A stretch of DNA of 64,000 nt, taken from Azolla caroliniana. Lineage: Eukaryota > Plantae > Polypodiophyta. How positions within the stretch are numbered: position 1 is the first letter of the stretch; each line of letters starts with the position of its first letter. The stretch spans positions 5,580,001-5,644,000 of the forward strand of contig JBHGNT010000016.1 of assembly GCA_043228905.1 (NCBI GenBank), in the 5' to 3' direction. A program made the translations under genes and the position numbers. The notes below the pieces were generated by a model. That model was not told the DNA's origin and made no database searches. It was given only the letters and a program-made list of their open reading frames with translations. This document shows positions 1,162 to 62,150 of the stretch, one piece after another.

Positions 1162-1441
1162 GTAAGCCATAATTTTATTGACCAACTTACAAATTGTCAA
1201 ACATCATGAATTGCACCAATTGCAGAATGTAAGGATTGAACACATGACCTTTTGGTGTCTGTAGGACAGCAATGCAAAGTAAGTCGAGAGGAAGAAATGT
1301 CTAGACCTGATAGATGTAGCTCAGTTGCTAAGGCTGTCTAACAGAAACCAAAAGGTCATGTGTTCAACCCTTACATTCTGCAATTGGTGCAATTCATGAT
1401 ATTTGACTATTGGTACAAGGATAAATAAAATTATGGCTTAC
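1162..1441. repeat. Long imperfect inverted repeat built from two head-to-head copies of a tRNA-derived SINE-like sequence
   Basis: Left arm 1162-1270 (gtaagccataattttatt...catgaattgcaccaattgcagaatgtaagg...ggacagc) is the reverse complement of right arm 1333-1441. The right copy starts with GTAGCTCAGTTG (A box-like) and contains GTGTTCAACCC (B box-like). A related copy lies near 39040. Confidence 0.85.
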
Positions 1442-2860: not shown

Positions 2861-3225
2861 ACTCAAATTATAGTGTTGTAGACTAATTAAGTAATGCATA
2901 TCTTACACTAATGAAGGCTAGCATGGAAAGAAACACAAGCTAAGGATTAGATAGAAAAGAATTCTCTTTCAATGATAAAAAGCTCGCGCCACTTGGACCA
3001 CAAACCTATTTTAAGAATTTTCATGGCTCATAATGGAAATGAACTTACTTTGCAGCCCCTATGCATAATGTCCATGAAAACAATCATCTTAATCAATATA
3101 ATATTCACAGAGAAAGTATTGTATAGCTATTTCCAAGTTAAATAATAGCATTGATAACTTTGAGGAACTTGATTTACTTCAAATTTTAGATGTGGAGTAT
3201 AACAATGACCAATCACTTATGATAC

Positions 3226-6200
3226 CTGGGCCAATGATGGATTTGCAGTCCCTGAAAAAATCCGAAGACGTGTTGTATCACGAAAGTCACCCAAATTCAC
3301 ATATTTCAAATCTTTTGGATGGAGGAGTCCTTGAGGTTCTGAGTGTTTTATATTTTTCAATGATGGTAATGATTTTTCATTAAATACACCTGGATTGACA
3401 AGAGTGCATCTCTGCAAAAGAAATAATATTTTCAAAATAAATATAAAACACCTGGATACTCACATCTAGATATGTCTCGCAACATATTGTATGAACACAT
3501 TATAATGCTCTTAGTATAACCGATTTAGAGGGATAGCTTGAGATGCAAGGGCAAAGTACTTTTTGGATCCTCCTCTGGAAAGATTTCACATTCTTGCATA
3601 ACATGTTGAAAGAAAGAAAGAATCATATAATGAGTCCATTTGCCATCTAAAGATCTTTATCTCTTTGAGAACTCCAAATCTCCACTAGTTATCCAGCATA
3701 ATATACTTTATCATAGTGATCTTCAATTTAGCAAAGGAACAAAAATTGACCCATTCACTGTAATCCATAATAGATGGTTCTCATTTTACTTCGCCATAAT
3801 GACAGACAATTCATTCACCATAATAATGGATAAAACTGTTGGCAACTCCAGAACTGCACTCTCTTTCATCTTTATTATCTCTCTTCTATATTCTCTTTCT
3901 ACCAAGATTCTTCTCTCTAGAATCTGCAACTCTTTAAATGCCTTCTCCATCTAGAATTTGCAACGCTTTAAATGCATTCTCTCTCTTTCACTTTTCCAAG
4001 ATATTCCCTTATATTCCTCATTTATTATACCTGTTTGGTAGTACAAGAGTCACTTAACTACCAAACAACCATTTCACCCATGTTCCCTAATTTTGTATAA
4101 ATAGGCTATACCAAGATCTTTTGTAAGAACTTTTATTTTTTATGTTACTTGTAAGCAGGCTCTACTCTTTGCAACTATCTTTGCTACTGCTGTCTAGCAG
4201 CCTTCTCACAGCTTGGCTGTGTGTCTATTTTTTCTAACTGTTCCATTGCTGCTATTAACAGCTTTTCTCACATGGTATCAGAGCAGTGAGGTCTCCATAA
4301 CCTCAGCCTGTTTTTTTTTGCCAAAGAGCACACAGACCTATCTTCTTTTCTCCCACCCTTAAGAGGAATTTTTTCTTTTCATTGCAGCCTCCCTCCCAAC
4401 CCTATAGAGGAGGTTCTCTTCGCAGCCACCCTAAAGTGCTCAAGCTTCTAATGAAACGCTTCTCCATGCAAAAAGTAAAGGCAAGTGGACACAAAATGGC
4501 AACTCCTACAACAAACCCAATCCAAGACCACCAAACAACTCAGCCTACAAGGAGCTCACTTGTCATTATTGTGGCTACAAAGGTCACATTCAGCCCAATT
4601 ATCAGAAAAAGAAAAGGGACAATGCTAAGAAATCTTCTAACGAAAGTCAACCTACACCAAAATCAAACTCAGCCCACTCAGCCAAAGAAACAGTTTTCCT
4701 TGGCATTGAGGAACATTCTTCACATTTGGCTGGACCAACTACAAAGGTCACATTCAGCCCAATTGTCGGAAAAAGAAAAGGGACAATGCTAAGAAATCTT
4801 CTAACGAAAGTCAACCTACACCAAAATCAAACTCAGCCCACTCAGCCAAAGAAACAGTTCTCCTTGGCATTGAGGAACATTCTTCACATTTGGCTGGACC
4901 AACTACAAAGGTCACATTCAGCCCAATTGTCGAAAAAGAAAAGGGACAATGCTAAGAAATCTTCTACCGAAAGTCAACCTACACCGTTTTCCTTGGCATT
5001 GAGGAACATTCTTCACATTCTTCACATTTGGTTGGACCAACTACCTCAACCATTGATAAGTGGTTAGTAGACAGTGGTGCCAAACATGACTTATGACAAA
5101 TCCGTTCTACATGATGCAAAGCCTAGCTCCTCCCAAATGTGCAGAGGAGATGCCTCAAGCATTGAGGCTTTGTGTGTGGGTAATGTGTTTCTTAACACTT
5201 CTTCAAATGACGAACCTGTCGTTCTTCAAGATGTGCTACATGTGCCTCGCATCTCTGCCAACTTACCTTCGGTCTACCAAATCATTAAGCAAGGTTATGG
5301 ACTCTACTTTGATAGCTCAGTTTTGGAAGTCATTGACACCAACAACCAACGAATTGTAGCTAGTGGCACGCAAAAAGTTCCGACAGCCCCTTGGAAAAAT
5401 CCAAATCTCATCTTCTTCATGTTCTTCAAGGCTTTCACACCATGGTAGGACAAGAAAATCCCACGTTGTGGCATGCTAGGTTTGGTCATTTCAACTACGA
5501 TTCTCTTCAAAAGCTCTCCTCTTCACAGCTAGTTGCGGGTCTTCCTATTTTCAAAATTCCCCATACCCCATGTGTGGCTTGTCTTCATGCCAAGCAGCAT
5601 CGAGAGCCTTTCTCTTATCAAGCCACTCACCATGCAACATCTATCTTGGAGTTAGTGCACATGGATCATTGTGGTCCCATGAAAAGCACTACTCTTGGTG
5701 GTGCACCCTACTTCATGCTTATCATTGATAATTTCTCCCGTAAGGTTTGGGTTTATTTTCTTGTAGCTCCTGTCGAGAACGAGACATCAAAGCAAGTTCA
5801 AAAGATCAGGTCCAACAATGGTGGAGAATTTATCTTCCAAGCTTTCCATTGTTTTTGCTCTCAACAAGGCATTGCTCGCCAATTTTCTACACCCAATACT
5901 CCTCAACAAAATGGTGTTGTGGAGATGAAGAATCGGACAGTCCAAGAGATGGTTCATACAATGCTATCTCAATCTGATCTTCCTTTCTCATTTTGGGGTG
6001 ACGCTGTCAACACAGCAGTCTACATCATCAACTGCTGCCCAACAAAGCAGTTGCTCCAATGACCCCTCTAGAAGCATTTACAGATGTAAATCCCTCAGTT
6101 TCTCATTTTAAAGTTTTTTGGTTATGATGCTTATGTTCACATTTCCGATCATAAAAGGACTAAATTTGAGTCCAAAACCAAGAAATGCAAGTTTCTTGGT

Positions 6201-25890: not shown

Positions 25891-28063
25891 TAAAATGAAA
25901 CTATCAAGTTCCTTCTAGGATTCGTATATAACATTCTCAATTCTAATATTTTATAACTAACGGAATAAGTTTTTGGGAAAAAAATCCTAATCCTTGAAGT
26001 ATGCTCATTCCAAACTTACAATCAATAAATGGCCATTCTTAACATCATTTTGGCCTTTATTAATGGTACCATCATAGTATTTTAGTTTGATAAACTCCCG
26101 TATTGTCACATGTTGAAAGACCAAAGCATTATTTGTAATGTCCTTATCGGACTATGGGAACACGTTGTTGAGATTAATAATAATTCAAATAATGACTTGA
26201 CTGGTTTCCTTTTCAAGAAAGTTTAACAAGCAAAGTCTCAGCTACAAGATTGTGTTTGTCCCCAAGAACAAGGCCTTGTATTGCACAATGAAACAATGCC
26301 TTCTTGACTTTTCTCAATGTATTTTAGCAAAAAAAAATCAGAAATATCCCCCAACGTTTCCTTATTGTTTCCTTGATGCCCTTGAAGTCTTATTATTTCT
26401 CCATACACCCTTTAGTCAGCCCTTGCCAGAGAATGCTATTTGAGATATTACATGGTCAATTCATCCCCACCTCCTAATTACATTGTTATTTGAGCAAATA
26501 TTTGGTCACTTTATCCCAAATTTCTCTTTTTCTTCTTCTAGGGTATCATAGGAAACTTGTTTTATTTATACATAAATTTTAACAAATGCAATCAACTTAA
26601 ATGCTTTGAAAGATGTATGCCCGAACTAAATGAGTTTACATTCGTGTTGACCCACAATAATAGAGAGAGAAATTTTTTATAGACATTAACTTTATGTGTG
26701 TTCATGAGGTCTTTCTTCTTCATATCATCTAGATTTGTTACAAACAAACCCCAAATTTATTGTTTGTTTTAGTAAAATTATGCATGCGAGGTTGGGATAC
26801 TTGTGATCGATACTGTAACATGGACACGAAGGTGATTATACTTTTATAAAGACATAATATAATGTTTTAATTGTATGAGATTGCTTTAATAATCGCAAAC
26901 ATATTGATCTAACATCCACCTTGATAATGACCATATGTGGCATCTCTTAATATCACAAAATGGCAATGTGTTGTAAAAGGGAGCTACATGACATCAAATC
27001 ATGTTACTGATGAGCACACAATTCCAACTCACAGTGACGTTTGTTACTCATCTTTTAATTTGCGTTACAATGAGTCAATGTCGTCCTGCCATTGAAATAT
27101 CAATCATTGGATGCAAACGATTCAATGGGGACAGTGAAGTATCATCCTTGCAATGACACCATTTTATGATGAATTGAAACCATGTGACTTGAGCAATGTG
27201 TCCCAACATTATGTGCTAAATAAAAGAATGAATACAAACCACAAAAACATTACTTTTAGTACATGGAATAATTAGATTTCGAGTCTAGATTATGATCGAT
27301 TGTGTTGTTGTCGACCTCCCTTCCATGCATTAATATTTATTTAGTGCAACAAATTTATATGGACCCAGTTTTAAAATAATAGTTTGGAAGATTTCAATAG
27401 TGTCGGAGGCTTTAGATCAAAATCAATTTTCCTATGGGTGCTTTATGGTACGACCACAACTTATAAAAATGTCCAACTTCCTTTTAACATGTTCTGATCA
27501 TATAATTTACCCTAAATTTCATTAAATTAGCTCTATGACAAGTTTATCAAGTTCTTGGTGCATAAAAAACCTCTAAGTATGCTTAATTTAACCTTAAATA
27601 GAGATTTGAGGCATGACAACATTACACTTACCCTCATGTTTCCATCAATGAGGCATTTTCCCTACCATTGCCTTTTGCGAGAAAAATGTCATCTACTCAC
27701 TTGAGAATAAAATTGTCCAAGGGCACAAGGCAACACCTAAGACAAAAACATGCCCTTCTACTTATTTAAAAATGATGAGTAGTCTAAAGGTTAAGTTGTT
27801 CAAGAGTAGATATGTATCGAGAGAGAGAGAGAGTACAATGGTAAGGCTATGGAATTGTTAACATGGAGGTACAAGGTTTGAATCTTGCCTTGTGCATGTT
27901 GCATGTAACATACATTTAATGCTTTTGTATCCAATGGTAGACATGGAGTGAAACATATGTACGAAAGTTGAAGGGAGTACTAATGTGGCAATTTTCTTTA
28001 TTAGAGCAAGTGGAAATTCAACATGTTCCACTACCCATGTAGTGTAGTTAGTGGGTAACCATT

Positions 28064-40187: not shown

Positions 40188-43100
40188 GAGAGAGAGAGAG
40201 AGAGAGAAAGGGTGAGAGAATGATGATAAAAGATATATATTATGTGAAGAGAGCATACAATAGTAGTTAGGAGGCTTAAGACTAGCGTTGAACCGATTTG
40301 GTTCGAAATAATGCCTTGTGCCTCCTTTTATAGTGTTCTCAGGAGTACTCCTGAAGTTTCTAGAATGTTCCAGAGAAATCTGGAATATACATCAATTTTC
40401 TATAATAAAACATAAATGAAAATAATACTCTATGTATTACAATGTATGGTCTAATGGTCAAGAGCTCGATCCATGTAGCATAAGGTCATGGGTTTGAGTC
40501 TTGCCATATCATGACACTATCCCCCCTTTAAAATGATGAGTGTCACGAGTCGTTTTGGATTGAGGACCCGGTTTGTCTGGATATTGACGATGGAAGTCTT
40601 CAAGAAGAGCACGAGCATTTGTCACATTCTCTATCGGTTCCCAAGTACGCTCGTTGGGACTATATCCTAGCCAATTGACTAGATAGTAGAGCTTGTTGCG
40701 AACAATCTTAGAATCAAGGATGGCGGCAACCTCGTACTCAGGTCCATCTTCAAGCTTGATTGGGGGTGGAGGCTGTATAATACGTCCTGGGATGGTGCTC
40801 TCTTGATAGGGTTCGAGAAGAGAACTATGAAACACCGGATGTATCCGAAGTTGCAGAGGTAGATCGAGACGAAAAGCAACATCATTAATCTTTCCTATAA
40901 TACGGAAATGACCTAATCGCCGATAATCCAACTTCTCGCATGGGTGAGTAGTCTTGATGTGTTGTCATAGTAGCCATACCCGATCTCCAATGTTAAAACT
41001 GGATGGAAGTCGATGACGATCCGCGTAAACCTTGTGTGTTTGTTGAGCTTGTTGGAGATGAGTAGATAAATCGGCTTGTATCTTGCGTAACCGCTCTAAA
41101 CGATCCTTTGCGCAAGGATTTGTGGACAACTCTGGGGTTTCAAATACACACCACCGGGGGTGAGAACCCGTATAAGCATAAATGGCGTAACTTTAGTCGA
41201 TGCGTGGACTGAATTATTGTAGGCAAATTCGGCGAAGTGGAGAATATTTACCCAGTCATCCTGATGATAGCTTAGAAAGCACCGAAGATATTGCTCCAGT
41301 GTTTGATTTGTTCGTTCTGCTTGGCCATTTGTTTGTGGGTGGTAGGGGGAGGAGAGGTTACAAGTGACCTTGAGCATTTTAAAAAGGTGCTTCCAGAATT
41401 TCGATACGAACTGGGGTCCACGGTCGCTAATGATACTATAGGGAAGGCCATGATGCCGACATACTTCACACATGATAATTTCAACGGTTTCTTCACTGGA
41501 TATTTCCTTAGTACATGGCAAGAAATGAGCCATCTTCGTATATTGATCTACGACTATTAGAATTGCATTGACTTAGAGACTGGAAGATTTGTGATGAAGT
41601 CTAGAGCAATGGATTGCCACGACTTGCTTGGAATTGGTAATGGTTCTAATAAACCATATGGATGATGCCTTGGCATTTTCGCTCTGCAACATGTATCACA
41701 AGTCCGAACAAAATCTTCGACAAATTGTCGAATATAGGGCCACCAAAATGATCGTTGTACTAAATCTAATGTTTTGTACTACCAAAATGCCCAACTGTAT
41801 ATGTGTCATGATAGTTTTGGACTACTCGAAGGCGGCAAGAACCATTAGGAACATACAAGAGTTCATTAAAGAATAGTAATCTATCATGGTATTTGAATTG
41901 TCGATAGTCTGTACCTGGTGGTTGCGACTGTGAACAAGATGCACGAGAGGGATCAATTTGTGCTAGAATGGCTTGGGCGAAAGCATCGGTCTTCAAGTCC
42001 TCACCTATAGTATCGATAATGTGGGAATCCATGGGCATGCCAAAGACTTGTGTTGCTTGCAATTGTGTCGATCCCAAGATTACTTGCTTTTGGTTATCAA
42101 AAGCTGGCTCACCGGGACGCGGTGCTAGGTACGAACGTTGTGATAATGCATCTGCCTTCCCTTGGTGCTTCCCCGGACGATATGTAATTTTGAAGTCGAA
42201 ACGCGTGAGGAAGTGGGCCCACCGAGCTTGACGTCGATTTAACACACGAGCGTCCTAAAAGTAGGCAAGGTTTTTGTGGTCACTAAATACGGTGACTTGA
42301 TGAGAGGATCCCTCTAGAAAATGCCTCCATTGCGTAAAAGAGTCCACTATTGCCAATAGCTCCTTATCATGAATTTCGTAGTTGATTTTGGCGGCGTCAA
42401 ACTTGCGTGAGTGAAAAGCCACAGGATGTAGCTTCTCATCATTACCCCGTTGTGACAGAATGCTCCCCAATGCGAAATCCGATGCGTCTGCTTCCATAAT
42501 GAATGGTTGTTCCGGATCGACATGAGCTAGAATTGGAGCCAATATAAATGCCTTTTTAAGACTCTCGAAAGCCATGTCCGTTTCTTTAGACCAAACGAAT
42601 GATTGTCCCTTCTTGGTAAGTTGTGTGAGAGGCAGAATGAGCTTTGAGTAATCTTGTATGAACTTTCGGTAAAAATTGGCAAAGCCTAAAAGCATTGCAC
42701 ATCTCGCATCGAATGCGGAGTTTGCCACTCTACCACAGTTTTGACCTTAGCTGGGTCCATGGAGATGCCTTCCGAGGAAATGACATAGCCCAAAAATTCC
42801 ACTTGGTTGCACCCAAAACTACATTTTTCCAGCTTTGCATAAAGATCATGTTCTCGAAGTCGTTTTAGTACTGATAGTACATGAGACTCACGCTCTTCTT
42901 GGGTCTTCGAATAAACCAATAGATCATCCAAATAGATGATCAAATAAACATCCAAGATATCTCGGAATATATCATTTGCCATGTGCTGGAAGACTGATGG
43001 TGCATTAGTGAGGCTGAACGGCATGACTGTATACTCGAAGTGCCCATATCTGGTGCGAAACGCGGTCTTCCATTCATCTCCTGGTTGGATCCGTACGAGG

Positions 43101-46100
43101 TTATAGGTTCCCCATAAGTTGATCTTCGTGAAGAACCTGGCACCATTGATCCGTTCTAAAAGACTTGAGATAAGGGGAAGTGCATACCTATTTCTGATTG
43201 TAACCTTATTCAAGCCATGGTAATCTACAACGAGACGAAGTGATCCATCCTTTTTCTTGACGAAGAAAATGGGTGCGCTGGTTGGAGATTTCGAATGCCG
43301 AATGAAACCATTTTCCAAATTCTCCTCTATATAGGCTCGTAGGACTTCTAGCTTGGTTGGTGACAAATTGTAGATTGGTCCCCATGGTGGCTCTTTCCCT
43401 GGTTGTAAATCGATGGGGCAGTCATACGGTCAATGGTGAGGAAGCGTATTGGCTTGTACTTTATCGAACACATCAACATAATGATGATACTTCTTTAGAA
43501 GTTGAACGGTGGACTCCTCTTTAATGGTGTTTGAGGGCATTACTGATATTGCGAAGAGAAACATTTCTTCCTTGCGTCCTTCCCGCAACTGATGTAGCGA
43601 AATGGTTGCAATCTCATGAGTAGACCCTCAGGCTTTTCGATACTGGATTTCTCTTGTTCTCCAATCTATGTTTGGGTTATGTAATTCGAACCATGGTAAT
43701 CCTAAAACAATGGGGTGTTCTGGGATGCTAATTATATTAAATGATACTACACATGTTAGATTATTTAGGACAATATTAGCGGGCTTTGACTCTTCTATGA
43801 TATTTCCGGAAGCAATGGGACGACCATCAATGACTACTACAGAGGCTGGACGCGGGAGTTTTTTGAGTGATATCTGATGAGCTTGGGAAAATTTCCTATC
43901 CATGAAGCAAGAATTAGCTTCGAAATCTAGAAGTGCTAAGACATGTATTGGAGGGGTATTTTTAGTACTAACTGTTACTTGGGCTACGAACACATTGCTA
44001 ACTTGCTTAGAGGGAATGGAACCACTAATGGGCTGCAAAGATCTAGGGCTGTCCAACCAAACGGCTCCTATTTTGGTTGAACTTAGTCGTTTAACTCTTC
44101 TTCTAACTGACTAAGGACATCAAATTTGTTCGCTAGATTTGGGCTATTAGTACTATTAGGACTATCAGATATCCCTACTGAAATAGACTCAGGTTCAGTA
44201 CAATTAGAATTAGCAACTATTTGGTTTACCTGCCTTCTTGGCCTATAGGGACAGTTTACACTGATATGCCCTGGTCCACCGCAATAAAGACATAGTCGGT
44301 TTGCTCGGCGTCGTTGCTTTTCTTCTTCCGATAGCGGTCCGCGATGACGTGTGGTGTCAATTTCCATCGGAGTTGGAGTACTTACTGGAGGTGCATTATA
44401 TGACTCCCTTGGAAAAGGTTTCACTACCACTGAGGCGTAAGTAGGCTCAAATCTTGCCCTTGGCATCTGGAACTGACGTTCTGAACGTCGTTCGAAGAGG
44501 CGATTGTCACATCTCACTGCGTGACTGATTGCTTTTGTTAATGACTTTGGTTCTTCGGGAAAGGTCAAGAGTAAATCTTTGACATCGTTACGTAGACCAT
44601 AACGAAATTGCTCCATTAACGCTTGATCATCCCAGGGGATATCGGAGGCAAGTAGACGAAAATCTGCAGCGTATGTGGAGGTTGGACGATCGCCTTGACG
44701 TAGTCGTCGGATTTTGTTGATTGTTGTCCTTATGCTGTCTGTATCTCTATAACAGGCTTTAAACTCACTTATAAATTCTTCAAAATTGTTTAGTAATGGA
44801 GATTCTTTTTCTAACAGCGGAGCGAACCATGACAACGTTGAGCCACTTAACAATGTGCCTACTAAACCCACTTGTGATGCATCGGTGGGATATCGGGAAG
44901 GATGCATTTGAATAACTAGTTATACCTGATTAAGGAACCCTCTAAATTGCGATTGCGTTCCATCGAATTTCATGGGAAGGCCGATCTTGGGTTCTTTATG
45001 AATCCCTTGTGTTCTGGGTCCTTATTGTTGCATCGCTACGATGGTTGCTTCGAGTTGTTGCACACGTAACATCAGCTCCCCGTGTTGTTGTTGTTTTTCT
45101 AGCACTATTTGTTGAAGATCCCCCAACAAACGATGATTTTCTTGTTCTAGTGCTACAAATTTCTCCTTTAAGCACTGGAGCTCCGAGAAAACATATTGGT
45201 ATTCTTGAGCACTAACAATTTCCATTTTACTAGGGAGGATAAGAGGATTAGTATGAAAGGAAGAAAGGGGTTAGAAGATGAGGGAAACAAAAAAGAAGAC
45301 CGGAAAAAGGGGATATGTAAGAAGATAAAAGGAAGAGGAGGAAAGGAGGAAATGGAAGGAGGACAGAAGGCAAATAGATTCAAACTGTAAGGATCAGTAC
45401 TAAGACATATAAGGAATTAGTACTAAAAGATAAGGATTAGTACTAAGAGAGGTGTAGAACGCTCGAGATAAGGAAAGAGTGAGAGCGAGAGAGAGATAGA
45501 GAGAGAAAGGGTGAGAGAATGATGATAAAAGATATATATTATGTGAAGAGAGTATACAATAATAGCTAGGAGGCTTAAGACTGGCGTTGAACCGATTTGG
45601 TTCGAAATAATGCCTTGTGCCTCCTTTTATAGTGTTCTCAAGAGTACTCCTGAAGTTTCTAGAATGTTCTAGACAAATATGGAATATACATCAATTTTCT
45701 ATAATAAAATATAAATGAAAATAATATTTTATGTATTACAATGTATGGTCTAATGGTCAAGAGCTCGACCCATGTAGTATAAGGTCATGGGTTCAAGGCT
45801 TGCCATATCATATGACATAATATAGTTTTGTAGTTAGGTGCAACATGTGTAGTATAATGTGTGAAGCATGAGCCTCCACATTTGTCCCTGTCATGATTAC
45901 ATTGGCATTGCAAAAAGGCCTCATTTATAGAGGAATCTACTAATGCATCATGTAGCAAGTGTCTCGCATCCCATCTACCAAACCATTTTTCTATAGCTTG
46001 CATCCAACCAAAACACAAAATTTTGCTTTTATGCGTCTTTTGGATCTTTTTGCTTGCTTTCCATACAATTCTAGGAAGTCGATGTGAGGGACTTTTTTGA

Positions 46101-46715
46101 TCCCTAAGCATGTATTCAACAACCCTTTCCATGGCCATGATCTCAATAGGAAGCGATCCCGTCTCAAGGAGGAGGGTGTAGGGTGTTTGTTTCTTAACTT
46201 GCAGAAACTTTGTAAGAAAATGTTTTTGGACATTTTCAAACTCTTTCCACATAGATTTAGGGATGCTACCGCCCCATACTTCCACCCCATAGAGAAGAAT
46301 CGATGTTACCAAAGTGTCGAAAAGATATTTCTTAAGGACCCAACACTTAATATCTCCAAGATTGCATGTGTTCTCAAATGCATAGTATGCTTGCTTACCC
46401 GCCTCTAAGCAGCGTCTAGCACATTCATTCCATCTATGATTTGAAGGAACTTCAAGGCCAAGATATTTGAAGCTTTCCACACATCCAAGTGGCTCATTGT
46501 TGTACATAATGCATGGTTTATCTCTTTTTTGGCTCTTCACAAGCATAATCTTTGTTTTACAGCTATTGACACTTAATTTAGTATGCATGCAAATTTTTTC
46601 CAATGCCTTCATAAGCTTTTGTGCATCTCCTAAAGTATTTGCAAAAAGCACTACATCATTTGCATATAGCAAAAGCATAATCATTACATTCCCAATAGCA
46701 ACTTCGTCAACACAT
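39608..46715 (-). mobile_element. 5'-truncated non-L1 LINE (RTE/RTEX- or L2-like RT C-terminal half), split by the chromovirus into 46715-45823 and 40032-39608, ending at a (TC)n tail
   Basis: Motifs LLLYANDVVLF, FKYLG, LLYGVEVWG, RLP. Removing the Gypsy insert and one TSD restores the frame NYKTI-FFAKRGNC...RLSSHALRCEIGRW...RLCTVC (C-terminal Cys motif). Confidence 0.85.
40033..45817 (-). mobile_element. Full-length but mutated Ty3/Gypsy chromovirus (Tcn1-like): gag, PR, RT, RNase H, integrase, chromodomain
   Basis: LTRs 45817-45386 and 40516-40033 (TGT...ACA). TSD gaata/taata. PPT ggggggatag. Gag CLYCGGPGH, RT YLDDLL, RNase H EADASDFALG, integrase SDRGPQF and HPQTNGQAER, chromodomain YEVAAILDSK...YLVNWLGY...TWEP. 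Stops and frameshifts present; roughly 20 substitutions between the LTRs. Confidence 0.96.
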
Positions 46716-48289
46716 GGGTGGGAATGGTAGGGGGTTCTAGATGGCCAAACCACCATCACCCATACGTGTTATAGTTCATCCTCAACCACACTCAATAACA
46801 TTGTTTTGTTTGATTAAGCTCATGGTCTCTTTAATGTGAGACAAGGAATTCAGGCACAAGCTAAGATAATCATTAATATTAGTTTGCAAACCTTATTTTG
46901 GTATTGTTTGTTGTATAATTGCCTTGCTCGACGATGTAAGAATGATGAAATAACAACAATGTATTTGGTTTGATCTTGGTCTGCAATTTTAAGTGAAGTG
47001 AACATTTATTGGCTTTTATACTTATCCTCGTTACAAAAGGGTTTCGGGTTCATAAAATGTCTATTAGACCAAGTAACTCCTAAAATATTCATGTACATGG
47101 CAAAGCATGACAAAATAAAAATATGTTGCTATAACATTACCATAAAAATGTGGTAATTCACTATTAGTTTTTGGATGTGATCATATAACTTGGAAAAGAA
47201 GGCACATTGGTTACAACTTACTCTCATATTGGATACCAAGAAAGAAGTTTGAGCTAAATGTGCAATAAAAGCCGAAGGGCCACCAATAGTGGATCTAAAG
47301 AGGCAACTTCTATCTTTTGGTTAGGCTCTTAGACCTTAGAACCCCACCAACAAAAAATGTGTTGAATTCTAAAGCAAATAACCAATTAGTGATATCAATA
47401 TGAAGCATTGAATGAATCAACAAAAATGACTATATAATGGATTTAATGTCACTTCAATACTTGAAAGCACAAGAAGAGAACACCACTAACACATATTCAC
47501 TGCTCACAAACATGGAGGCATGAAGAGTTAGATCTACTATACAATGTGGGAAACAAGAAGCTGTGTTTTCATAGGGTTCCTTTGGTGCCACCATATCATT
47601 ACTAGAGTGTGTAATAGGTAAACCAATAAGAAACATTAGGATGAAATTGTTTTATATAATATAATAGTTTTCTAATGCCCAAGACTTTATAACATGGTAA
47701 AATGGATGTGATACATCAAACCACGTCTTCTCCAATAAATGTCAACGCAAAGCATGGTAATTATGTTGACAATCTACCCTTGCCATTGTTCAATAGCTTA
47801 CGCATTGAAGACTAGCATACTTGCATCATTGCCACACTTAAAAACAACCATGTTGGCAATTCCTCATTGTGCTTTCAAACTAATATTTTCATCTTCTTTG
47901 CAACTCATAATAGGAGCAAATATTGGAGGTGTCAGTCTATATATGTGGAGGGATGTAAATATAATAAAATAAAATAGAAAATTTATCATTCACAATGAGA
48001 CCAATTTCAACATATCTTGTATATGACTTTTTTCCTTAAAATATGGGTTACTACTATGTAGTAAAAACTCTAGAAACTCTCAATATGAAAATAATGCATG
48101 CATATATGTGCGCACACGTCTCGGTGATAATTTGAGTATGACACTCACGTTATCATGCCCACTTAACAAATCATGTTTTTCACAAATTATGTTATAGGTT
48201 GAGCATTCAATAAGTGAGTTTCATACTCCACTAGGTTTTCATTACATACCTTGAATATTTTCATGTCTAAATGGTGATGATGCCTCAAT

Positions 48290-56696: not shown

Positions 56697-56780
56697 TCCG
56701 ATCCATCGGATTCGAACCAACGACCTAAGGATTTCTATTAACGCTACAGTCCTCCGCTCTACCAACTGAGCTAAGGTCAA
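56697..56780 (-). pseudogene. trnY-GUA: Decayed tRNA-Tyr(GTA) with an 11-nt intron
   Basis: TTGACCTTAGCTCAGTTGGTAGAGCGGAGGACTGTAG-cgttaatagaa-ATCCTTAGGTCGTTGGTTCGAATCCGATGGATCGGA. The acceptor and T stems carry several transitions giving G-U and C-A pairs. No T-run terminator follows. Confidence 0.85.
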
Positions 56781-58877: not shown

Positions 58878-59521
58878 ACACTCTTCTTCCTTGTCATTAT
58901 CTTGTCCGCCACTGCCACTATGGTGTATATATATCTTCTAAGACCTCCTTTACAATTCAATACAAAGATATCTTAATCTATAATGTCTTCCTTTATAGTT
59001 TAATACAATGCTAAGTCCACTCTTCTTCCTTGTCATTATCTTGTTTGCCACTACCACTATGGTGTATATATATCTTCTAAGACCTCCTTTACAAGTAAAT
59101 ACAAAGATATCTTGATCTATAATGTCTTCCTTTATAGTTCAATACAATGCTAAGTCCGAATATAATGTCCGTTGTCCACCACTCTATTTATTCCTCCACT
59201 TAAATCTTATGGTCCAAGTAGGAATCAAACCCTTGACCTCTCACTCTTAGCACAAGCTCTTACCAATTACATATATCGTATATGTATATATGTACATTAC
59301 ATTGTACACATATATATACATGTCTTCTAAGACCTCCTTTACAATTCAATACAAAGATCTCTTAATCTATAATGTCCTCCTTTATTAGTTGAATACAATC
59401 ATACTAAGACCAAATATAATGTCCATTGTCCATCATTCTATTTATTCCTTCACTTAATCTTATGGTCCAATTAGGATTCGAACCCTTGACCTCTCACTCT
59501 TAGCACAAGCTCTTACCAATT
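58878..59521. repeat. Tandem duplications upstream of the PPR gene. Two units end in a tRNA-Ile-like fragment on the minus strand (59210-59270, 59463-59521).
   Basis: Repeated cttctaagacctcctttacaa...atacaaagat units. The minus strand reads aattggtaagagcttgtgctaagagtgagaggtcaagggttcgaatcct. Confidence 0.8.
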
Positions 59522-59624
59522 AGAAGAGACAGAGAAAAAAAAACAAAAGAAAGAGAAAGAGAGAAAGATGGATGTATAAAGAGATGGAAGAAAAAGACAG
59601 ACTGAGAGGCTTCCCATCTCCTTG

Positions 59625-62150
59625 ATGCCAAATTATAGCACTTTGGGCGACGAAGCCATAGCTATTCTGGAGAAGAAACATCACAATGGCTTCTCCCTGT
59701 GCAAAAACCTGCTTTACAATTCAATACAGAGATCTAATATCAACCTCTCGCAAGCTCAGAGACTTCATTCTCTCTTCATCTCTCATGAATCTTTGACTTC
59801 TTCTTCTTCTTCTTCTCTGGCTGATGTTTTTATTGGCTTGTTTGGGTCTTTTAATAGGCTTCTTGAAGCTAACCTTTTGTTCCATCAGGTGAAGAAGAAG
59901 ACTTTATTCACATGGGAAGCTATGATTTCTTCTCATTCTGTGGAGGCAGAGCATTTGAGAGCTCTTTACCTGTATCAGGAGATGGAACAAAGTGACGATG
60001 GGTTTCTTTTCCCAGGTAAGAAAATATTGTCTTGTGTTTTGAAATCATGTAGTAATGGTAGATTTTCAAGTGAAGGGATGCTTATCCATGATAAGGTTAT
60101 CAGAGAGAATCTTGAAAGTGAAATCTACATTGGAAGTAGCTTGATTGATATGTATGCTAAATGTGGTCATACATATGAAGCTCAGAAAGTGTTTGATAAA
60201 TTGCCCGATCGGAATGAAGTTACGTGGAATACATTGATTTCAGGTTATGCCCAATTTGGTCATGATTTATCTGCTATGAATCTATTCGTAAAAATGCATC
60301 AGAATGGTGTAAAGGCTGGGAAAGTGACATTTCTGTGCCTGCTAAAGTTATGTTGTAGCAAATCACGATCCATTTATTCCGGTAGATTGTTACATAATCT
60401 TATTATTGAAGGTGGGTTCGAATCCGAGATTGCCATAGGAAGCGCATTGGTGGATATGTATTCTAAGTGTGGAAATATAGAAGAAGCTCACTCTACATTC
60501 GTCAAAATCTCTAACAAGAACAAAGTAACTTGGGGAGCTATGATTTCAGCTTATGCTCAACACGGGTATGGTCATCTCGCTATTGAAAGTTTTAATGAGA
60601 TGCAACAAATGGGTATTAAGCCAGACGAGGTTCTGTTCTCATGTGTATTGAAAGGTTTGGCTGATATAGGATTGATTGAAAAGGGTATGCAAACACACAA
60701 TCAAATCATAGTTTATGGGCTTGATGGAGATTTAGTTCTTGGAACTGCCCTCATTGACATGTATATTAATTGTAGAGATCCATCTTCAGCATATAGTGTG
60801 TTTAAAGCGTTGCCTTGTCAAAATGTGATTACTTGGAGTGCAATAATTTCAGGATATGTTGAGCATGGCCATATACCTGATGCTCTACAACTTTTTGAGG
60901 AAATGCATAAACATGGCATAAAACCAGATATGGTAGCATTTCTTTGTCTCTTGCAAGCGTGTACTACTACCCCCCCTAGGTACTTACCTGATGGTATGAT
61001 TATACATTTCTATGTTATAGAAATGGGGCTGGAAACTGATTCAAAGCTTGAAAATGGCCTTGTTGACATGTATTCAAAATGTGGGATGCTCAAAGATACC
61101 CAGAAAATGTGTGACTTGTTGCCATTTCAAAGAGCCGATGTGTTGAATAAGAAGATTTCAGCATATGCTCAACTAGGACAGGATGATTTGGTTCTTAAAC
61201 TGTTTGGAAGAATGCAATATGATGACTTGAACCAGGGAATAGATACAGTTTTACTCGTGTTGAAATCATGTGCTACTGAAGAAGACTTATGGATTGGTCG
61301 AAAAATCCATAAATGGATAGCAAAGAAAAAATTGGAGTTGGATCTGACTTTGGGTAATACTCTTCTCAATATGTATGTTAAATGTGGTGCTTTGGAAGAA
61401 GCCCATGAAGTATTCAATGAGATGAGAATTAAGGATGTAGTTTCATGGGGTATCATAATTGCAGGTTATGCTGAATGCGACCATGGAAACCATGCTCTCC
61501 GCCTCTTTAAGAGAATGCAAGACGAAGGCCTAGAACCTGATAATGTCGCGTTTTCATGTGTTTTGAGAGCATGTGGATCGATGGGGTCAATCGAACAAGG
61601 AAAGATCGTCCATGACCAGTTCCTTAGAAGTGGGCTTGTGTTAGATTCAGTTGCTGGAAACATCATTGTTGACATGTATGCAAAATGTGGTAGCCTACAA
61701 GATGCTTGGAAAATGTTTTATGCTTTACCTGAACGAACCAAGGTCTCTTGGAACTCTATAATCTCTGCTTGCGCTCATCATGGGATGTACCATTTAGTAG
61801 AACATTGCCTTGTTGAAATGGAACAAAAAGGTTTAAAACCAAGTGATGCGACATATAACTGTATATTCACTGCATGCAGTCATGCTGGGCAAGTTGAAGA
61901 AGGTAGAAAGTTCTTTAATTCTATGGTCGAAGATGATCATGTTACACCCTCAACAGAGCACTTTAATTGTGTATCAGATATTTTTGCCCGAGCAGGGTGT
62001 CTTCAAGAGGCTGAAGAGCTTCTTCAAATCCTTCCGGTTCTACCTAGTGCAACTAGTCAGACATCGTTGCTGACAGCATGCAAAATCCATAGTAATTTAC
62101 GTGTCGGATTTGGATGCTATGGAGACCCCCTTGCGCAGTCAATAAGATGA
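59625..62150 (+). CDS. PLS-class pentatricopeptide repeat protein (organellar RNA-editing type), ending in a truncated E domain with no DYW
   Basis: Intronless 841-codon ORF with repeated P-L-S triplets (GSSLIDMYAKCG..EA..VF..L..R..VTWN.LISGYAQ.G). C-terminal CSHAGQVEEG...PSTEHFNCVSDIFARAG.L.EA...LL.ACKIH.N. Confidence 0.93.
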   Translation: MPNYSTLGDEAIAILEKKHHNGFSLCKNLLYNSIQRSNINLSQAQRLHSLFISHESLTSSSSSSLADVFIGLFGSFNRLLEANLLFHQVKKKTLFTWEAMISSHSVEAEHLRALYLYQEMEQSDDGFLFPGKKILSCVLKSCSNGRFSSEGMLIHDKVIRENLESEIYIGSSLIDMYAKCGHTYEAQKVFDKLPDRNEVTWNTLISGYAQFGHDLSAMNLFVKMHQNGVKAGKVTFLCLLKLCCSKSRSIYSGRLLHNLIIEGGFESEIAIGSALVDMYSKCGNIEEAHSTFVKISNKNKVTWGAMISAYAQHGYGHLAIESFNEMQQMGIKPDEVLFSCVLKGLADIGLIEKGMQTHNQIIVYGLDGDLVLGTALIDMYINCRDPSSAYSVFKALPCQNVITWSAIISGYVEHGHIPDALQLFEEMHKHGIKPDMVAFLCLLQACTTTPPRYLPDGMIIHFYVIEMGLETDSKLENGLVDMYSKCGMLKDTQKMCDLLPFQRADVLNKKISAYAQLGQDDLVLKLFGRMQYDDLNQGIDTVLLVLKSCATEEDLWIGRKIHKWIAKKKLELDLTLGNTLLNMYVKCGALEEAHEVFNEMRIKDVVSWGIIIAGYAECDHGNHALRLFKRMQDEGLEPDNVAFSCVLRACGSMGSIEQGKIVHDQFLRSGLVLDSVAGNIIVDMYAKCGSLQDAWKMFYALPERTKVSWNSIISACAHHGMYHLVEHCLVEMEQKGLKPSDATYNCIFTACSHAGQVEEGRKFFNSMVEDDHVTPSTEHFNCVSDIFARAGCLQEAEELLQILPVLPSATSQTSLLTACKIHSNLRVGFGCYGDPLAQSIR

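What the first reader, a model, noticed from the sequence alone, without database searches (positions are those of the whole stretch)
45744..45817. Chromovirus LTRs start with an antisense tRNA-like (Pol III A/B box) module, conserved in two diverged families
Seen: both LTRs of the 40033-45817 element carry, in the first ~70 nt of U3 and opposite to the element's direction, TGGTCTAATGG (A box-like)...AAGGTCATGGGTTCAAGGC (B box-like), closed by tatgg/ccata pairing (45744-45808; 40445-40510). The diverged solo LTR has at the same position and orientation a clearer tRNA-like 68-mer (28154->28087: GGCTATCTAAATGGTTAGG...CATGTATTACAAGGTCTTGGGTTCAAGCCCAGGTGAAGCCA), sharing catgta.ta.aaggtc.tgggttcaag. 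Known: Cassandra TRIMs carry 5S rRNA Pol III units in their LTRs, and TFIIIC-bound B boxes act as chromatin barriers. Inference: these LTRs carry a built-in tRNA-like unit that could insulate the element from heterochromatin, or drive outward (5' LTR) and anti-integrase (3' LTR) Pol III transcripts. I do not know this as a described feature of autonomous chromoviruses.
Basis: partly seen in the sequence, partly recalled or inferred. Interest (0 to 1): 0.8.

Follow-up and report, generated by a model that had tools for sequence, protein, structure and literature searches.

The report
Retrotransposon LTRs carry outward tRNA promoter
A lineage of self-priming, protein-coding retrotransposons in a land plant (probably a fern) keeps the two promoter boxes of a tRNA gene, facing outward, at the tip of each terminal repeat while the DNA around them has diverged, so these boxes likely recruit the RNA polymerase III machinery and would shield the element's own promoter from its chromosomal surroundings.

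Summary
Both LTRs of the chromovirus at 40033-45817 and the solo LTR at 28065-28908 carry an antisense A box, tRNA variable loop and B box at tRNA spacing. Eight related lineages, nearly saturated at four-fold sites (0.41), have it at the U3 tip. Identity is 0.79 (B box), 0.82 (variable loop) and 0.61 (A box), against 0.33-0.42 in flanks and the anticodon arm. A profile built without each lineage ranks its module first in 8 of 8; 0 of 48 outgroup LTR starts score. The cloverleaf, anticodon and terminator are not kept, so it is not a tRNA. These elements self-prime, with compensatory changes, and have a separate TATA promoter 115 nt inside, so no tRNA primer explains it. Best reading (0.5): a captured tRNA/SINE head kept as a TFIIIC/Pol III boundary. 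Binding, transcription and barrier activity are untested. Closest known are Helenus and Cassandra, which are non-autonomous and (Helenus LTRs seen) sense. Ten literature searches found no description in autonomous elements. The scan noted tRNA-type boxes in LTRs of two other, probably fungal, genomes (unchecked notes).

The parts
40033..45817 (-). Tcn1-like Ty3/gypsy chromovirus; this copy is frameshifted (gag, RT, RNase H, integrase, SH3, chromodomain in separate frames)
   Evidence: target duplication 4 of 5
45386..45817 (-). 5' LTR (432 nt)
40033..40516 (-). 3' LTR (484 nt); the pol frame ends a few bases inside it
45746..45756 (+). A box of the module, 5' LTR, pointing out of the element
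45782..45799 (+). variable-loop equivalent (45782-45786) and B box (45791-45799), 5' LTR
40447..40457 (+). A box of the module, 3' LTR, pointing antisense into the chromodomain
40483..40500 (+). variable-loop equivalent and B box (40492-40500), 3' LTR
45626..45631 (-). TATA box of the LTR's predicted Pol II promoter, 115 nt inside the A box (3' LTR copy at 40332)
   Evidence: function inferred
45587..45597 (-). predicted 5' end of the genomic RNA (self-priming 11-mer), 34 nt after TATA (3' LTR copy at 40298)
   Evidence: in L007, L013, L025 this site and the PBS change together
45374..45385 (-). self-priming PBS, decayed in this copy (no perfect complement of 7 nt or more)
40517..40529 (-). 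polypurine tract
28065..28908 (+). solo LTR of a second family, 392 of 434 aligned bases identical to the LTR of L006, interrupted by a 408-nt insert at 28178-28585
28099..28151 (-). module of the solo LTR: A box 28151-28141, B box 28107-28099

Best explanation
The LTRs of this retrotransposon lineage keep, at the outer tip of U3 and facing away from their own promoter, the A box, variable loop and B box of a tRNA gene that was likely captured once as a SINE head, and these boxes likely bind TFIIIC and Pol III to form a boundary that would shield the LTR's predicted Pol II promoter 115 nt further in. Shown here: presence, position and orientation in 8 lineages; selective conservation of the boxes; loss of cloverleaf, anticodon and terminator; a separate TATA and a self-priming site. 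Inferred: SINE origin, single capture, TFIIIC binding, Pol III firing outward, and the benefit (blocking read-through transcription or silent chromatin from the insertion site). Because U3 of the 3' LTR is copied to both ends, every new insertion would get the site at its upstream edge. The constraint shows between replicating lineages; the dead window copy decays there.
For: Box-only conservation over 8 lineages: B box 0.79, variable loop 0.82, A box 0.61, anticodon arm 0.38, flanks 0.33 and 0.42, four-fold sites of pol 0.41 and Pol protein 0.64. Control for anchoring bias: 0 of 300 shuffled-and-anchored sets reach the A, B or variable-loop values, and the variable loop was not part of the anchor. 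Leave-one-lineage-out profile ranks the held-out module first in its whole locus in 8 of 8 (scores 17.7-41.9). The same profile puts the window's two real tRNA genes 6th and 9th in 64 kb. No T4 run inside the module in 0 of 8 lineages against 3.2 expected, P 0.012, as expected if Pol III reads through it. SINE-like heads in the window keep the same three blocks. Self-priming removes the need for a tRNA primer. The module is covered like the rest of U3 by thousands of contigs from 4 organism labels. TFIIIC sites act as boundaries in fission yeast (PMC4502379, abstract) and block Pol II read-through in budding yeast (PMC4228148, abstract).
Against: No binding, methylation or Pol III transcript data. 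The barrier precedents are from yeasts, not plants. The A box is looser (2 mismatches in L012 and L025) and a B box alone can suffice for yeast boundaries (recalled), so keeping A box, spacing and no T4 fits transcription as well as a barrier. The T stem (27 of 40, P 0.012) and anticodon stem (17 of 40, P 0.043) pair slightly above shuffles; the T-stem excess is gone without the G53-C61 pair (19 of 32, P 0.12). The L002 family forms a strong hairpin over the module (z -4.2), L025 a weaker one (z -2.6 on the genomic strand), the other six do not. Single origin is weakly supported at the base: 93 SH-aLRT in the quick tree, 42.7/89 with L025 and 91/96 without L025 and L014. In L008 a second site scores 26.9 against 28.6 for the module (not identified). 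In the window copy 5 of 16 LTR-LTR differences in 298 nt fall in the first 50 nt.
Confidence: 0.5

Rival explanations
1. The module is a Pol III promoter whose RNA is the point: short antisense RNAs from the 3' LTR into the chromodomain and from the 5' LTR into the flank would limit copy number or feed small-RNA pathways.
For: A box, B box and spacing all kept; no T4 inside the module. In several loci the first T4 lies 12-52 nt after the B box, in some within the reverse of the polypurine tract.
Against: The first T4 lies anywhere from +1 to +531 nt, or is absent in the stretch scanned (L006), so no common RNA exists. No conserved fold.
Confidence: 0.2
2. The function lies in the genomic RNA: its U3 carries the complement of tRNA D, variable and T loops and anneals host tRNAs to help packaging, dimer formation or strand transfer, as the Ty3 bipartite PBS does.
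For: The orientation is the one needed, and U3 right after the polypurine tract is in the genomic RNA. In Ty3 the tRNA T and D arms pair with U3 (PMC5371799, passages). The L002 family matches the window's tRNA-Lys over 15 contiguous bases at the variable loop and T arm (read).
Against: These elements self-prime, so no primer tRNA is tethered. The lineages do not follow one tRNA: T-stem halves and anticodon positions differ, and the 3' T-stem half no longer complements the 5' half, so the match to any real tRNA stops at the boxes. I had no host tRNA set to test against.
Confidence: 0.12
3. The site is a landing pad or activator: TFIIIB/TFIIIC at the LTR draws integration upstream of the module or opens chromatin for the LTR's TATA promoter, with no barrier role.
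For: Ty3-type elements target Pol III genes (search listings). An unchecked scan note (e1-10420520) reports this for another genome. The one insert in the solo LTR starts 27 nt upstream of the A box.
Against: That insert has no visible target duplication and contains a group II intron end, so it is not a retrotransposon; n = 1. No genome was available to count insertions.
Confidence: 0.1
4. A neutral relic of an old SINE insertion, or repeated independent SINE insertions.
For: SINE-like heads with the same blocks exist in the window. An unchecked scan note (e1-9852194) found a neutrally decaying tRNA relic in a fungal LTR. The window copy decays in the module.
Against: Boxes at 0.79-0.82 against 0.41 at four-fold sites, with a CpG kept in the B box of 5 of 8 lineage representatives. 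Same place and strand in all 14 loci with the module. No SINE body, tail or duplication is shared.
Confidence: 0.05

Closest known systems
Helenus (TRIMp3; Kojima 2024, PMC10886601; parts 1-4 of 6, searched passages and two supplement passages read)
   Same: tRNA-derived sequence inside the LTR; A and B boxes kept, tRNA function lost; SINE insertion proposed as origin; one family in a non-seed plant.
   Different: Helenus is non-autonomous, 311-1263 bp, tRNA-primed, and the four Helenus LTRs I saw in the supplement carry the boxes in sense, where they could drive the element's own RNA. Here the elements are about 5.8 kb, relatives encode intact 1150-1208 aa Pol, they self-prime, have a TATA box, and the boxes point away. 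The paper argues autonomous partners must use Pol II and are unlikely to share long LTR stretches with TRIMp3.
Cassandra and Ajax TRIMs (as described in PMC10886601)
   Same: Pol III promoter from a small-RNA gene fixed in plant LTRs.
   Different: 5S-derived, non-autonomous, and for Cassandra shown to transcribe the element itself.
Tcn1 clade chromoviruses, Tf1/Sushi group (PMC6317226 and PMC2864245, passages)
   Same: Ty3/gypsy order with a chromodomain bearing aromatic cage residues; no tRNA PBS; self-priming; non-seed plant host.
   Different: No tRNA-like LTR module appears in the passages read. PMC2864245 found no Tcn1 clones in ferns by PCR and no priming mechanism for SM-Tcn1; here self-priming shows by compensatory change and the host is probably a fern.
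TFIIIC-bound tDNA/B-box boundaries of yeasts (PMC4502379, PMC4228148, abstracts)
   Same: A/B or B boxes acting as DNA sites, independent of an RNA product.
   Different: Those are fixed host loci; here the site would be carried by a mobile element for its own benefit. Not tested in plants here.
Ty3 bipartite PBS (PMC5371799, passages); tRNA-like sequence in HIV-1 U3-R (recalled; one search found only a citing paper)
   Same: tRNA-complementary sequence in U3 of the genomic RNA.
   Different: Those elements prime with that tRNA; these self-prime and do not track one tRNA.

Membership tests
Helenus / TRIMp3 | tRNA-derived A and B boxes in the LTR | tested here: met
Helenus / TRIMp3 | non-autonomous, about 1.3 kb or shorter | tested here: not met
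   5.8 kb with gag-pol; intact Pol in relatives
Helenus / TRIMp3 | tRNA-complementary PBS | tested here: not met
   PBS is complementary to the element's own predicted 5' end
Helenus / TRIMp3 | boxes oriented to transcribe the element | tested here: not met
   antisense in 16 of 16 LTR starts; sense strand 5 or more mismatches in 15 of 16
Tcn1 chromovirus | Ty3/gypsy domain order ending in a chromodomain | tested here: met
Tcn1 chromovirus | aromatic cage in the chromodomain | tested here: met
   Y, W, Y present by eye; cage positions recalled
Tcn1 chromovirus | self-priming, no tRNA PBS | tested here: met
   12, 12 and 9 nt perfect complements in L007, L013, L025 and 7 nt in L002, 32-38 nt after TATA; decayed in the window copy
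Tcn1 chromovirus | groups with named Tcn1 references in an RT-RH-INT tree | not tested
   no named references fetched; the REXdb supplement files were too large to read
tRNA gene | cloverleaf and detection by tRNA models | tested here: not met
type 2 Pol III promoter / TFIIIC boundary | A and B boxes at tRNA spacing, no internal T4 | tested here: met
type 2 Pol III promoter / TFIIIC boundary | TFIIIC binding, Pol III transcription, barrier activity | not testable with these tools
   needs ChIP, 5'-triphosphate RNA and reporter assays

The most novel reading that the evidence does not exclude
Autonomous retrotransposons can carry their own portable chromatin insulator: a captured tRNA promoter that puts TFIIIC at the outer edge of every new LTR. 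A chromodomain-bearing element could then land in silent chromatin and keep its promoter working, and solo LTRs would scatter thousands of TFIIIC sites through large fern genomes.
Probability: 0.3. Interest if true: 0.82.

Novelty: new variant of a known kind. Interest (0 to 1): 0.62.

Why it matters
Pol III promoters in LTRs are described only for short non-autonomous elements, where they make the element's RNA. Here a protein-coding, self-priming lineage with its own TATA promoter has kept an outward-facing one through near-saturating divergence, so it must serve something else. If it is a boundary, it is a cis-acting way for a transposon to escape its chromatin surroundings, and it makes the question of whether plant tRNA promoters act as insulators testable with two point mutations in a compact natural cassette. 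It would also be a large source of false tRNA or SINE calls, and of candidate TFIIIC sites, in these genomes.

Tried and rejected
No whole genome is held, so copies could not be counted and nested insertions could not be mapped. ARAGORN and Rfam do not call the module a tRNA. Viral contigs gave 3 loci without the module. Sequencing runs: no RNA holder listed. Three poly(A) RNA runs of a related organism label gave 24-26 reads each on 741 nt from about 12 million records read, with no pile-up of starts or ends; no verdict, and poly(A) libraries miss Pol III RNAs. Cloverleaf: acceptor 23 of 56 and D stem 20 of 32 pairs, at shuffle level. An integrase-attachment role was rejected because the distance from the tip varies from 25 to 58 nt. 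The careful 84-row tree did not finish; the quick tree was used and a 39-row tree with bootstrap was added. The L008 leave-one-out value was an indexing error, corrected. The last lines failed; the terminator scan was redone. PMC3286476 (passages) was not relevant. The ESM Atlas gave only Streptophyta for the host PPR protein.

Full report
What is there. The element spans 40033-45817 on the minus strand, with LTRs at 45386-45817 and 40033-40516, a polypurine tract at 40517-40529 and a 5-bp target duplication matching 4 of 5. Pfam finds gag, RT, RNase H, integrase, SH3 and chromodomain in separate frames, so this copy is dead. The solo LTR at 28065-28908 is 90% identical (392 of 434 aligned bases) to the LTR of locus L006, which follows a related pol, and holds a 408-nt insert. 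The host is a land plant. The best identities among named relatives of the window's PPR protein are fern proteins (48% and 44%), which is weak support for a fern.

The observation. All three LTRs have, antisense at the U3 tip, an A box and a B box 44-45 nt apart, each module with one mismatch to recalled consensus motifs. None of 1600 shuffles does as well; of 912 window tiles three do, two of them real tRNA genes and one a SINE-like head (the tiling cut the LTR modules themselves). ARAGORN and Rfam do not call them tRNAs.

Is it a family trait? Logan contigs of four DNA runs under four organism labels laid 3049-6031 records on the 5' LTR, with summed depth over the module comparable to the rest of U3. 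A sequence model of the module hit 14 of 100 loci searched (L101 left out), always antisense just after the polypurine tract. Twelve of the 14 were in the model and match by construction; L007 and L020 were not. Three further clade members (L009, L011, L014) end within about 26 nt of the LTR start and cannot be judged. None of 48 outgroup LTR starts with 150 nt or more scored above 5.1, against 17.7-41.9 for held-out clade members; about five of the outgroup starts were probably mis-called. The carriers form one group in both trees, with weak support at the base: 93 SH-aLRT, and 42.7/89 with L025 or 91/96 without L025 and L014.

What is conserved. I took one representative of each of 8 lineages (L002, L008, L006, L005, L010, L012, L013, L025), leaving out near-copies. 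Mean pairwise identity is 0.79 for the B box, 0.82 for the five variable-loop positions, 0.61 for the A box, 0.38 for the anticodon arm, and 0.42 and 0.33 for the flanks. Four-fold sites of pol are at 0.41 and the protein at 0.64. Anchoring on the best match inflates identity, so I shuffled and re-anchored: 0 of 300 sets reached the A, B or variable-loop values, and the variable loop was never part of the anchor. A profile trained without the held-out lineage and its nearest kin ranked the held-out module first in its whole locus in 8 of 8 (for L008 the margin is only 1.7). Trained on LTR modules alone, it ranks the window's two tRNA genes 6th and 9th in 64 kb. Between distant lineages, blastn of the first 420 nt aligns mainly the stretch around TATA and the self-priming site.

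What is not conserved. Acceptor and D stems pair at shuffle level; the T and anticodon stems are slightly above it (P 0.012 and 0.043), and the T-stem excess disappears without the G53-C61 pair that belongs to the B box (P 0.12). RNAalifold predicts 0 pairs. Only the L002 family folds strongly (z -4.2). The anticodon position varies. The first T4 after the B box lies at +1 to +531 or is missing. No T4 occurs inside the module in any of the 8 (3.2 expected, P 0.012).

How the element replicates. Directly after the LTR, L007, L013 and L025 carry 12, 12 and 9 bases perfectly complementary to a site 32-35 nt after a TATA box, and the two sites change together between lineages. This is Tf1-type self-priming, predicted for most Tcn1 elements (PMC6317226, passages). 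It places the transcription start about 220 nt into the LTR, so the module lies wholly in U3, 115 nt outside the TATA box, and cannot drive the genomic RNA. It also removes the usual reason for tRNA-complementary sequence in U3, the bipartite PBS of Ty3 (PMC5371799, passages).

Mechanism. The pattern (boxes and spacing kept, fold and product lost, no internal terminator) is that of a SINE head or a TFIIIC site, and SINE-like heads in the same window keep the same blocks. I infer one capture of a tRNA-derived head, kept because TFIIIC and probably Pol III bind there. The most likely benefit is a boundary that protects the 5' LTR promoter from read-through or silent chromatin at the insertion site, by analogy with yeast (PMC4502379, PMC4228148; abstracts only). 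I put this at 0.5, an antisense RNA product at 0.2, tRNA annealing on the genomic RNA at 0.12, landing pad or activator at 0.1 and a neutral relic at 0.05. No step after conservation is shown. The window copy itself decays in the module (5 of 16 LTR-LTR differences in the first 50 of 298 nt), so the constraint acts on replicating lineages, not on this insertion.

Known and new. Helenus, Ajax and Cassandra are the precedent for small-RNA promoters in LTRs (PMC10886601; parts 1-4 of 6, passages, two supplement passages). They are short and non-autonomous, and the four Helenus LTRs seen are sense. That paper notes that 'not a few' Repbase LTRs resemble tRNA but analysed only TRIMs under 1000 bp, so similar autonomous families may sit unremarked in Repbase, which I could not search. 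Ten full-text searches found no description of an antisense A/B-box module in autonomous chromovirus LTRs; the library lacks most subscription papers, and two REXdb supplement files that could hold Tcn1 LTRs were too large to read. Membership in Tcn1 is by features only. Two unchecked scan notes report tRNA-type boxes in LTRs of other, probably fungal, genomes, one read as functional and one as neutral; neither was tested here and neither is support.

Verdict. A real, selected, lineage-wide cis element with an untested function: a new variant of the small-RNA-promoter-in-LTR theme. Interest 0.62.

Noticed in passing
window 59457-59524 and 59204-59279 (-): Two tandem tRNA-derived SINE-like heads with a shared body of about 200 nt, about 55 nt before the PPR reading frame at 59580; they share the variable-loop and B-box blocks with the LTR module and could be kin to its donor.
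   Followed up: partly
window 1162-1441: Inverted repeat (109-nt arms, 88%) whose arms contain a tRNA-like head (A box 1317, B box 1362, and a truncated mirror at 1230-1255); two inverted SINE copies or the end of another element.
   Followed up: partly
window 27831-27884 (+): A further decayed A/B-box head after a GA microsatellite, about 180 nt left of the solo LTR.
   Followed up: no
window 28178-28585: Insert in the solo LTR with the 3' end of a group II intron (28405-28518, 42 bits, above the Rfam cut-off) followed by what looks like a tRNA 3' exon; resembles plastid trnA DNA (recalled, untested).
   Followed up: partly
L007:4489-4660, L013:4304-4465, L025:1368-1512: Self-priming site and PBS co-vary between lineages, direct sequence evidence for Tf1-type priming in plant Tcn1-like elements; outgroup L095 shows the same design with another sequence.
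   Followed up: yes
window 30982-31054 (-) and 56697-56780 (-): A tRNA-Lys(CTT) gene and an intron-containing tRNA (38.5 bits, missed by ARAGORN in bacterial mode).
   Followed up: no
window 45818-46768 and 39980-40032: The element sits inside an RT-bearing high-copy repeat, probably a LINE; loose ends of contigs at 45819 match the left flank and confirm the insertion site.
   Followed up: partly
window 40512-40964 and PPR gene 59580-62150: If the host is a fern, a Tcn1-like lineage is abundant in a group where PCR screens found none (PMC2864245).
   Followed up: partly
L084-L101: Eukaryotic chromovirus contigs inside 'bacterial' and 'archaeal' genome records, most likely binning contamination.
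   Followed up: no
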